Source: Promethearchaeota archaeon (GTDB lineage Archaea; Asgardarchaeota; Lokiarchaeia; Sigyniarchaeales; SOKP01). Taken from it: a DNA stretch of 56,616 nt. Under the pieces are notes generated by a model. That model searched no databases. It saw only the letters and a list, made by a program, of their open reading frames with translations, and was not told the origin of the DNA. The position numbers and the translations under genes are program-made. Positions 32,249 through 35,466 of the stretch are shown here, piece by piece (position 1 is the stretch's first letter; every line of letters begins with the position of its first letter). The stretch lies in contig JAFGGO010000173.1 of NCBI GenBank assembly GCA_016930515.1, positions 1-56,616 of the forward strand. Reading direction: 5' to 3'.

Positions 32249-32704
32249 ATGCATTTGGTTCTCTCTTATTTTCATAGGATCAAAGGTCCCAACATTTACC
32301 TATCTTTTCCTGAGGTTCAACTGGAGCAGGACATCATCAACAAGCTTATGAAATTCTTTGACCTTGATATAAACGAGACATTTTTTGAAATCGTCCTGAT
32401 CAACCGAAAGCGAAGGATTCTGAACCTATATTTCGAAATACCTTCAGAGTGGGCACGAGGAAAAGTCGAAATGGCCATGCTCTCTCTTATCATGAAGATC
32501 GAGTATGATTCTCGCTTGACCTGGTCGTTCTTAATAGATGCTTCACATAAAATTATTTCCACGCCAAACATCTTCAAGGCCTTCTACAAGCACGATGATT
32601 TCAGGGAAGATGATATCGAAATCGATGTGTATTATGAGGGGATAAAAAATATCTTATTTGATTGCTTGGATGGGCTCATCGACCGTATGGAAAAAAAAGG
32701 CTAA
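32249..32704 (+). CDS. Longin/uDENN-like protein
   Basis: N-terminal LVLSYFHRIKGPNIYLSFP resembles the F-H/D-x3-GP start of NPRL2/C9orf72/FLCN longin domains. Confidence 0.6.
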   Translation: MHLVLSYFHRIKGPNIYLSFPEVQLEQDIINKLMKFFDLDINETFFEIVLINRKRRILNLYFEIPSEWARGKVEMAMLSLIMKIEYDSRLTWSFLIDASHKIISTPNIFKAFYKHDDFREDDIEIDVYYEGIKNILFDCLDGLIDRMEKKG

Positions 32705-32757
32705 TCTTTAATTGCTTGTCGCGATACCTATTTATTGGGAAAGCGATGACGAAATAA

Positions 32758-32817
32758 TTGCATTATCGAGGACTTTTAGGACACTTGGATGATTAAAAGT
32801 GCAAACAAATGCAAACA
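32758..32817 (+). ncRNA. H/ACA guide RNA hairpin 1 (K-loop, ACA box)
   Basis: Stem TTGCATT/AATGCAA, pocket ATCGAGG/GCAAACA, upper stem ACTTTTAG/TTAAAAGT, GA..TGA K-loop, ACA at 32815-32817 14 nt after the upper stem. Confidence 0.85.
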
Positions 32818-32845
32818 TTCGGAGTTCCAATAATCAATACTTCCC

Positions 32846-32927
32846 CTGCAATACATATGGGCTCTTTACCAAGCAACGGTGGGAACCAAAGCGATGAGGT
32901 CAGAGTCAGAATTCCCAATTGCAGATA
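32846..32927 (+). ncRNA. H/ACA-like hairpin 2 (variant K-turn, AUA box)
   Basis: Stem CTGCAAT/ATTGCAG, pocket ACATATG/AGAATTCCCA, upper stem GGCTCT/AGAGTC plus ACC/GGT, AA/gatGA K-turn variant, ATA at 32925-32927. Confidence 0.6.
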
Positions 32928-32958
32928 TGATTATTTCCCAAAAGGCGTGCGAGTTAGC

Positions 32959-33035
32959 GCCTGACACGAGAGAACGTTTTTGATGGTAAGGAATCTCCTT
33001 CGCATGAAAAAATCGTGTTAGTGTCTCAGGCAACA
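32959..33035 (+). ncRNA. H/ACA-like hairpin 3 (K-turn, ACA box)
   Basis: Stem GCCTGA/TCAGGC, pocket CACGAGAGA/GTTAGTGTC, ACGTTTTT-GA..catGA-AAAAATCGT K-turn, ACA at 33033-33035. Confidence 0.62.
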
Positions 33036-33089
33036 GCGCACGCTGATTTCAATCAGAAATTAATAATCATTAATATACATTGATTGTTC

Positions 33090-33566
33090 TTAAAATGTGA
33101 GGTCAGAAGAGAGTAATTCTTTCAATTTATCGCTCGAACTCGTCTTATCGTCCTTTAAATATGCAGTTAAGATTTTTGCGATTTGTGGTGCCCATTTCTT
33201 TAAAAGGGCGCGTATGAACCCTATTTGAACATTTGAATCGGTTGCAATGCATAACACACCACTACCAATCTTTGCCGCAAATATCATTCCATCTTGGTAT
33301 TCAGTAATCTGAACGCGAATGCCTCCATATCCCAGAATTTGCCCTTGTTCTTCTCCTGCAACAAATACTGCCCCTCCAATTGCACCAATCTTTTCAACCG
33401 AGGTATCATTGTCGATAAAATGGAACTTTGATTCGTTAAGTATCGTAATACCCGTCTCGTCGATGATGAGTGCGTGTTTTAAACCAGCCGTGCTATTTAT
33501 AATCGTGTTGAGTATTTTTTTTAAAATTTGTTCGTCTTGAGAATATCTCACTTTCATCACTCGCAC
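33090..33566 (-). CDS. Roadblock/LC7 (MglB/LAMTOR-like) protein
   Basis: ALIIDETGITI, IGAIGGAVF, QITEYQDGMIF, VQIGFIR roadblock pattern. Confidence 0.85.
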   Translation of the reverse strand: MRVMKVRYSQDEQILKKILNTIINSTAGLKHALIIDETGITILNESKFHFIDNDTSVEKIGAIGGAVFVAGEEQGQILGYGGIRVQITEYQDGMIFAAKIGSGVLCIATDSNVQIGFIRALLKKWAPQIAKILTAYLKDDKTSSSDKLKELLSSDLTF

Positions 33567-35193: not shown

Positions 35194-35466
35194 TTAAGAT
35201 ATTTTGGCATATACGCTTAGATTGGGGTCAAATTCCAGTGATTTATTCGTGCTAATCGAAATAAACGGAAGATCGACCGGTCCAAAAATGTCTTTAATAC
35301 GACCAATTTCGTCGTAATTCTCATCGTAAATCGGTTTTTTAAAGATTTTTTCGAGGTCGCGATTCCATTTTTTCATTCGAAAAATAAGATGTTTTCTTGA
35401 CTTTCCGAGATAAAACAAGTCTAATTTAATCCAGTTTTTCAAGGCTCGAAGGTATCCCACAATCAT
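35194..35466 (-). CDS. gar1: H/ACA RNP protein Gar1
   Basis: IYDENYDEIGRIKDIFGPVDLPFISI; lies directly upstream of tfb, a common archaeal gene order. Confidence 0.85.
   Translation of the reverse strand: MIVGYLRALKNWIKLDLFYLGKSRKHLIFRMKKWNRDLEKIFKKPIYDENYDEIGRIKDIFGPVDLPFISISTNKSLEFDPNLSVYAKIS

What the first reader, a model, noticed from the sequence alone, without database searches (positions are those of the whole stretch)
32715..33046. Multi-hairpin H/ACA cluster with two orphan guides nested in outer helices
Seen: two further hairpins, each with basal stem, pocket, upper stem, K-turn and ANA box. Their predicted targets are approximately UGGGAAUUC(U)-UN-(C)AUAUGU and GACACUAAC-UN-UCUCUCGUG, which I cannot place in rRNA from memory. 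Unusually, each is enclosed by an extra outer helix (AATAATC/GATTATT; GCGTGCG/CGCACGC at 32945-32951/33037-33043) that puts the ANA box in or beside an internal loop. For hairpin 3 the junction (GTT-agc/AAC-agc) resembles a relaxed bulge-helix-loop motif. A further small stem-loop precedes hairpin 1 at about 32717-32752. I see no clear TATA box in the 54-nt gap, so co-transcription with the upstream gene is possible. Inference: a polycistronic snoRNA-like precursor, perhaps processed or circularised by the splicing endonuclease, possibly with non-rRNA targets.
Basis: partly seen in the sequence, partly recalled or inferred. Interest (0 to 1): 0.8.

Follow-up and report, generated by a model that had tools for sequence, protein, structure and literature searches.

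The report
Asgard three-hairpin pseudouridine guide RNA
This is a real, conserved small RNA gene of Asgard archaea that most likely tells the pseudouridine-making enzyme which uridines of the large ribosomal RNA to convert; its two supposedly orphan hairpins do have ribosomal targets, so it is a new copy of a known kind of guide RNA with extra enclosing helices.

Summary
The structure is real; the 'orphan, co-transcribed, endonuclease-processed' reading is not. Window 32737-~33046 is one ~310-nt, three-hairpin H/ACA guide RNA. It has its own archaeal promoter, is present (nearly always as one copy) in 122 of 135 genomes of the family, and has homologues across Asgard. Predicted 23S targets (E. 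coli numbering): hairpin 1, U2496; hairpin 2, A-loop U2554; hairpin 3, helix 69 U1915/U1917. For hairpins 2 and 3, guide and rRNA change together between lineages. Hairpin 2 also carries a second register fitting U2586: intact in 28 of 30 genomes with U2586, 0 of 8 with C2586, including this one. Target regions and order match Afu4/Pab40/Pf7 and Haloferax sR-h45, although the Rfam HgcG model does not hit. The outer helices are conserved and covary, and a fourth K-turn closes hairpin 1. The bulge-helix-loop junction and the 5' stem-loop are not conserved. Single-sequence pairing energies do not beat shuffles, so support comes from conservation. No expression or modification was shown. The scan found this RNA before, in at least 11 genomes by its index.

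The parts
32698..32713 (+). Archaeal promoter: A-rich BRE-like stretch and TATA box (TTTAAT, 32707-32712), overlapping the stop codon of the upstream ORF
   Evidence: Positional conservation at -34 to -24 in 55 homologues; inferred, not mapped
32737..33046 (+). Three-motif H/ACA guide RNA of about 310 nt; predicted start G32737, approximate 3' end
   Evidence: Conservation boundaries; found in 122/135 family genomes
32737..32739 (+). 5' GGG pairing with CCC 32937-32939, closing a junction over hairpins 1 and 2
   Evidence: 96.8% of cells paired but no two-sided change, so weak support
32741..32827 (+). Fourth K-turn helix (32741-32753 with 32818-32827) enclosing hairpin 1 and its ACA box
   Evidence: 7 of 8 pairs with two-sided changes; same motif seen by eye in other Asgard families
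32759..32817 (+). Hairpin 1: guides 32764-32771 and 32801-32804, K-loop, ACA 32815-17 at 14 nt; target 23S U2496
   Evidence: Rank 1 of 1307 U, UN unpaired, found in the genome's own 23S
32830..32934 (+). Outer helix of hairpin 2 (32830-32836 with 32928-32934)
   Evidence: 96% of cells paired; compensated in L026 and L031; different sequences in f7 and f19
32846..32927 (+). Hairpin 2: 5' guide AUGGGC 32857-32862, 3' guide CAG 32907-09 plus CCC 32914-16, K-turn, AUA box; target A-loop U2554. The second register for U2586 is decayed in this genome
32945..33043 (+). Outer helix of hairpin 3 (32945-32951 with 33037-33043)
   Evidence: Two-sided changes; p<=0.05 in 13 of 24 parsed homologues from 6 of 8 families; missing in some genomes
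32959..33035 (+). Hairpin 3: 5' guide GAGAG 32968-72, 3' guide GUUA 33017-20, K-turn, ACA 33033-35 at 16 nt; target helix 69 U1915/U1917

Best explanation
One independently transcribed RNA of about 310 nt carries three H/ACA motifs. Each binds L7Ae at its K-turn and Cbf5-Nop10-Gar1 at its lower stem and ANA box, and guides uridine-to-pseudouridine conversion in 23S rRNA. Hairpin 1 targets U2496 in canonical geometry. Hairpin 2 targets A-loop U2554, pairing with both strands of helix 92 and leaving three bases unpaired. Hairpin 3 targets the helix 69 loop, U1915 and/or U1917, with 4-5 bases unpaired as in Haloferax sR-h45 SL2. In most relatives hairpin 2 has a second register for U2586; this genome has C2586 and that register has decayed. 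It is the Asgard counterpart of Afu4/Pab40/Pf7. The outer helices and the fourth K-turn most likely stabilise the fold and protect the ends. SHOWN: conservation, covarying structure, promoter signature, guide-target complementarity and covariation, presence of the protein genes. INFERRED: transcription, RNP assembly, actual modification, role of the outer helices, common ancestry with Pab40.
For: Conserved in 122/135 family genomes. Hairpin 1 and 3 models hit side by side in 24 of 55 further genomes from 11 families, one of them a training genome. Structure covariation. The genome's own 23S on contig C11 holds the U2496 and U2554 sites, with A2555 and C2586; numbering checked on E. coli rrlB. 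Averaged over 56 homologues, U2554 ranks first of 1070 U for hairpin 2 (mean -21.3, worst -17.0), U2586 third, and U1917 first for hairpin 3. Guide-target covariation, hairpin 2: family f19 has helix 92 GCCUGUU with guide GACAGGC, against GCCCAUU with AAUGGGC in f1; f13 has U2551 with 3' guide CAACCC, 6/6 pairs at 15 nt from the box. Hairpin 3: f13 has an altered helix 69 and both guides follow it (9/9 and 6/6 pairs); in f19 the 5' guide extends to 9 bp. ACCCAG at a fixed 13 nt from the ANA box: 28/30 genomes with U2586, 0/8 with C2586, the latter from four genera. Cbf5, Nop10 and L7Ae are in the genome, and Gar1 is 2.1 kb away. Literature: Pab40 motifs 1 and 3 guide 2588 and 2016; Afu4 motif 2 was assigned to 2601 or 2632; UNN pockets work (PMC2377435); sR-h45 guides 2605 and 1940/1942, and spacing up to 19 nt works with an ACA box (PMC7075261).
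Against: Single-sequence pairing energies do not beat shuffled guides (hairpin 1: 3/40 shuffles as good; hairpin 2: 8/40; hairpin 3: 39/40). For this genome alone U1917 ranks only fourth, and its lead in the family average is narrow. Hairpin 2's CAG register lies 18 nt from the box here (16-20 in the genomes), outside the 14-15 nt rule for Pyrococcus. Hairpin 3 has a mismatch next to the pocket on the 5' side. Helix 69 is not assembled in this genome; its sequence is taken from four family members. Rfam RF00064 finds no match, so common ancestry with Pab40 rests on target order. rRNA contigs in assembled metagenomes can be misbinned, and kin are not independent.
Confidence: 0.85

Rival explanations
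1. Hairpin 2's only productive target is U2586, as for Haloferax SL1, so in this genome (C2586) it is a catalytically idle remnant and the A-loop pairing is not productive.
For: The N-ACCCAG register has the canonical 14-nt spacing and tracks U2586. Muller et al. judged the A-loop assignment of Afu4 motif 2 to break their rules. The A-loop register here is 18 nt from the box.
Against: CAG and AUGGGC are kept in all 8 C2586 genomes. Both guides covary with helix 92 in f13 and f19, while helix 93 is nearly unchanged. f13 has 15-nt spacing for U2554.
Confidence: 0.1
2. Hairpins 2 and 3 pair with helices 92 and 69 mainly as folding chaperones during large-subunit assembly, with little or no modification.
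For: Non-canonical pockets (3-5 unpaired bases, long spacing); a scaffold of outer helices; yeast snR10 has a processing role (PMC7991803).
Against: K-turn spacing and ANA boxes are conserved as needed for catalysis. Equivalent atypical pockets are catalytically active in Haloferax.
Confidence: 0.1
3. A polycistronic precursor, co-transcribed with the upstream gene and cut or circularised by the tRNA splicing endonuclease at bulge-helix-loop junctions.
For: The outer helices are real; this genome's fold shows a 3-nt bulge beside a short helix.
Against: Central helix is 3 bp and its register is not conserved; conserved own promoter; upstream gene variable and RNA inverted in one genome; outer helix 3 is absent in several genomes and f13 lacks the outer helices.
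Confidence: 0.04
4. Hairpins 2 and 3 are orphan guides for tRNA, mRNA or other RNAs.
For: Single-sequence energies are weak, and a tRNA-Ser site scores -18.8 against -20.8 for the A-loop. Archaeal motifs can have up to three targets.
Against: Guides follow lineage-specific changes of 23S helices 92 and 69.
Confidence: 0.03

Closest known systems
Afu4 / Pab40 / Pf7 / Pho40 three-motif H/ACA sRNA (Rfam RF00064 HgcG; PMC2377435, PMC4652768)
   Same: Three H/ACA motifs in one RNA. Motif 1 target P. abyssi 2588 (E. coli 2496 by an offset of 92, my inference). Motif 3 target in helix 69. Motif 2 of Afu4 assigned to 2601 (about E. coli 2555, A-loop) or 2632 (E. coli 2586). Same order.
   Different: No hit to RF00064. 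Each motif sits inside an outer helix and a fourth K-turn closes hairpin 1; I found no such features in the text of these papers but could not see their figures. Pab40 motif 2 itself acts at 1932. Here one pocket carries signatures of both disputed motif-2 targets.
Haloferax volcanii sR-h45 (PMC7075261)
   Same: 5' hairpin for 2605 (E. coli 2586) followed by a 3' hairpin for 1940/1942 (1915/1917) with four unpaired bases; upper stem longer on its 3' side.
   Different: Two hairpins only, no 2496 guide, pseudoknot-type spacer, no A-loop target reported.
Yeast snR46, snR10, snR191 (sites 2865, 2923, 2258/2260)
   Same: Equivalent rRNA positions. 2258/2260 by snR191 is from PMC7075261; 2865 and 2923 follow from the 369-nt offset in PMC2584109, and their guide names are from my own knowledge.
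   Different: Separate two-hairpin H-box/ACA RNAs without K-turns; no sequence relationship tested.
Pab21 and eukaryotic composite C/D-H/ACA RNAs
   Same: A C/D-like K-turn next to or around an H/ACA hairpin.
   Different: The position that is U-U in C/D boxes varies freely here, so this is a plain K-turn; no methylation guide was identified.

Membership tests
Archaeal box H/ACA guide RNA | Hairpin with lower stem, pocket and upper stem | tested here: met
   Folds and covariation for all three hairpins
Archaeal box H/ACA guide RNA | K-turn or K-loop about 10 bp above the pocket | tested here: met
   8 nt between guide and GA/AA on the 5' strand in all three; motif conserved. Hairpin 2 has AA for GA and extra bases on its 3' strand
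Archaeal box H/ACA guide RNA | ANA box 14-16 nt from the target U | tested here: inconclusive
   Hairpin 1: 14. Hairpin 3: 16 (44 of 56 homologues). Hairpin 2: 18 for the CAG register here, 15 in f13, 14 for the U2586 register
Archaeal box H/ACA guide RNA | Bipartite complementarity flanking a target U | tested here: met
   with covariation; not significant by single-sequence energy
Archaeal box H/ACA guide RNA | Cbf5, Nop10, Gar1 and L7Ae encoded in the genome | tested here: met
Archaeal box H/ACA guide RNA | Expressed, binds the core proteins, directs pseudouridine formation | not testable with these tools
   No RNA holder listed; needs bench work
Afu4/Pab40/HgcG (RF00064) | Three H/ACA motifs in one RNA | tested here: met
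Afu4/Pab40/HgcG (RF00064) | Motif 1 to 2496, motif 2 to A-loop or 2586, motif 3 to helix 69, in that order | tested here: met
   the Pyrococcus-to-E. coli numbering is inferred
Afu4/Pab40/HgcG (RF00064) | Score above the Rfam gathering threshold | tested here: not met
   No match at gathering score or at E<=10; not filed as an RF00064 member
Bulge-helix-bulge / bulge-helix-loop endonuclease substrate | 4-bp central helix with a 3-nt bulge, conserved | tested here: not met
   3-bp helix; first pair in 2 of 22 homologues
Box C/D methylation guide | RUGAUGA and CUGA boxes with the U-U pair and an antisense element | tested here: not met
   The position varies among Watson-Crick pairs and mismatches; no Rfam C/D hit on this strand

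The most novel reading that the evidence does not exclude
The outer helices, the 5' GGG/CCC closure and the fourth K-turn build a fixed scaffold that holds three H/ACA RNP units, so that helices 69, 89, 92 and 93 are engaged in an ordered way during assembly of the peptidyl-transferase centre. Hairpin 2 switches between an A-loop register and a U2586 register. The dual register alone I put at about 0.6; it would reconcile the two conflicting published assignments for Afu4 motif 2.
Probability: 0.2. Interest if true: 0.65.

Novelty: new member of a known kind. Interest (0 to 1): 0.36.

Why it matters
Asgard H/ACA guides are not caught by Rfam here, and I found no paper describing them in the library searched. 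This RNA predicts pseudouridines at four or five positions of the ribosome's functional core in Asgard archaea, most of them also modified in yeast, and homologues exist in three complete single-contig genomes of the same order, which by size look like the cultured Lokiarchaea (my inference). The link between U2586 and the second register of hairpin 2 gives a testable answer to a small open question, namely what motif 2 of the Afu4/Pab40 type targets. The kind of RNA and most of its targets are already known from Euryarchaeota, so this is annotation plus a mechanistic detail rather than a new system.

Tried and rejected
Rfam scans: nothing at gathering score; two chance C/D hits on the opposite strand at E 3-8; RF00064 no match. 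A 16S helix-12 match for hairpin 2 was rejected because the polarity is wrong and spacer lengths vary. U2555 as target was rejected: it is A in this genome and most relatives. The 23S fragment first returned for this genome (C72) was rejected as the target: about 68% identical to family 23S, while C11 is 83%. Sequencing runs: no RNA holder listed, and two metatranscriptome contig sets laid nothing; neither is evidence on expression. The sigma-70 promoter scan is not applicable. One search was uninformative (trailing N ignored) and one search found nothing. Pyrococcus and Archaeoglobus sequences could not be obtained (supplement listings illegible; the GTDB pattern returned only Asgard records), so no direct alignment to Pab40 or Afu4 was made. 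The automated outer-helix test parsed only 24 of 42 loci and cannot score K-turn helices. Two paper searches failed on the term 'H ACA'.

Full report
Setting. The finding lies in the 385-nt gap between a 151-aa ORF (32249-32704, +, no Pfam family) and a convergent roadblock-type ORF (33090-33566, -). The genome is an Asgard archaeon: it has eS26 and a Gar1-TFB pair, and GTDB records holding the same RNA are labelled as Asgard. Lokiarchaeia is my inference from the sizes of complete genomes in the same order. Rfam and ARAGORN find nothing in the window.

Observation. DNA similarity in relatives is confined to about 32730-33050, and the RNA is found in 122 of 135 genomes of the family, nearly always as one copy. 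On a 22-sequence alignment the model structure has 91.9% of cells paired and 37 of 76 pairs with two-sided changes, against 37-42% paired for slid controls. The structure was drawn from one of these sequences, so the cells-paired figure is favoured; the two-sided changes are the better evidence.

A promoter is present: across 55 homologues A is 95% at -33, T is 78-93% at -30 to -28 and T is 91% at -1, relative to the conserved GGG; here the box is TTTAAT at 32707-32712. The 5' stem-loop straddles this promoter and is not conserved. The upstream ORF is found in only 15 of 29 loci within about 1.5 kb, and in locus L020 the RNA is inverted between the same two genes. The proposed bulge-helix-loop has a 3-bp helix whose first pair exists in 2 of 22 sequences.

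Targets. The genome's own 23S 3' part is on contig C11, and numbering was checked against E. coli rrlB. Hairpin 1 fits U2496 with canonical geometry and ranks first of 1307 uridines. The two guides are complementary to the two strands of helix 92 and therefore partly pair with each other; opening them gives AUGGGC against 2557-2562 and CAG against 2551-2553, leaving U2554-A2555-C2556 unpaired. This site ranks first here and first on average over 56 homologues. Hairpin 3 uses GUUA against 1911-1914 and GAGAG against 1920-1924 of helix 69; U1917 ranks first on the family average but only fourth for this genome. Helix 69 is not assembled here and is identical in four family members.

Energies alone are not enough. 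Shuffled guides find an equally good site in 3, 8 and 39 of 40 trials for hairpins 1, 2 and 3. The case rests on covariation. In family f19 the 3' strand of helix 92 differs at two positions and the 5' guide follows. In f13, C2551 is U and the 3' guide reads CAACCC, six of six pairs at 15 nt from the box. In f13 helix 69 is also altered and both guides of hairpin 3 follow, 9 of 9 and 6 of 6 pairs; in f19 the 5' guide extends to 9 bp.

Second register of hairpin 2. Most homologues carry ACCCAG exactly 13 nt before the ANA box, complementary to 2579-2584, which places U2586 at canonical spacing with a weaker 5' duplex; this site ranks third on the family average. Among 38 family genomes with both the RNA and this part of 23S, ACCCAG is intact in 28 of 30 with U2586 and 0 of 8 with C2586. 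The eight come from four genera, three of which also have U2586 members, and the decay differs among them. The Fisher p of 9e-7 overstates, since kin are not independent and rRNA contigs can be misbinned. This genome has C2586 and a decayed register, while the A-loop guides are kept in all 38.

Distribution. A hairpin 1 pattern hit 97 of 400 phylum genomes, with about five hits for the reversed control. Covariance models of hairpins 1 and 3 hit side by side in 24 of 55 further genomes from 11 families, and DNA search found homologues in three complete genomes of the same order. Outer helices with unrelated sequences recur in several families but are absent in f13, and one genome has only hairpins 1 and 3. 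They are therefore real but dispensable for the basic design.

Mechanism. Shown: conservation, structure, promoter signature, complementarity with covariation, and genes for Cbf5, Nop10, L7Ae and Gar1. From established knowledge: L7Ae binds the K-turn, and Cbf5 binds the lower stem and ANA box and isomerises the unpaired U (PMC7075261). Pockets with three or four unpaired bases, and spacings up to 19 nt with an ACA box, are active (PMC2377435; PMC7075261). Inferred: the RNA is made as one transcript and directs pseudouridine at 2496, 2554 and 1915/1917, plus 2586 in most relatives; the outer helices leave the ANA boxes largely unpaired in internal loops and likely stabilise the RNA.

Comparison. 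Pab40, Pf7 and Afu4 have three motifs. Pab40 motif 1 acts at 2588 and motif 3 at 2016 in helix 69; Afu4 motif 2 was assigned to 2601 in one study and to 2632 in another. With an offset of 92, derived from the Haloarcula equivalence, these are E. coli 2496, about 2555 and 2586. Haloferax sR-h45 covers 2586 and 1915/1917. The RNA works like these and is probably related to them, but it does not meet the RF00064 model, so I file it as an archaeal H/ACA guide and not as an RF00064 member. Earlier reports of this scan reached the same family reading on other Asgard genomes; I saw them only after my own analysis, and they are not independent support.

Verdict. Observation partly confirmed; interpretation partly supported. 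A new member of a known kind, with two details worth testing: the enclosing helices and the two-register hairpin 2. Interest 0.36.

Noticed in passing
G000 contig C72 (L001), 1-1640: A second 23S fragment only about 68% identical to family 23S, with changes in normally conserved peptidyl-transferase positions and a LAGLIDADG-like ORF in an apparent intron near helix 69-71; probably a misbinned contig from another archaeon.
   Followed up: partly
G000 contig C11, 5936-6742 (-): The genome's own 23S has C2586, U2497 as in eukaryotes, and an insertion in helix 91; G010 has a similar insertion.
   Followed up: partly
window 35194-35466 (-): Gar1 gene directly upstream of TFB, 2.1 kb from the guide RNA.
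   Followed up: partly
L179 (G177) and L175 (G178): In family f21 the homologous guide RNA lies a few hundred bases downstream of the 23S gene on the same strand.
   Followed up: no
L150 (G310); L141 (G105); L154 (G070): Modular variants: hairpins 1 and 3 only in G310; hairpin 3 not seen in G105; hairpin 1 alone before a tRNA-like sequence in G070.
   Followed up: no
L020 (G030): The RNA with its promoter is inverted between the same two flanking genes.
   Followed up: partly
L010, L013, L014, L125 (genus g6): A 10-nt insertion in the 3' strand of hairpin 3's lower stem puts the ACA box 26 nt from the guide; presumably looped out.
   Followed up: no
window 32249-32704 (+): Conserved 151-aa protein with no Pfam family, 57-92% identical in relatives.
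   Followed up: no
L095-L097 (family f13): 23S departs from the usual sequence at the A-loop (U2551) and helix 69, and the guide RNA is compact, without outer helices.
   Followed up: yes
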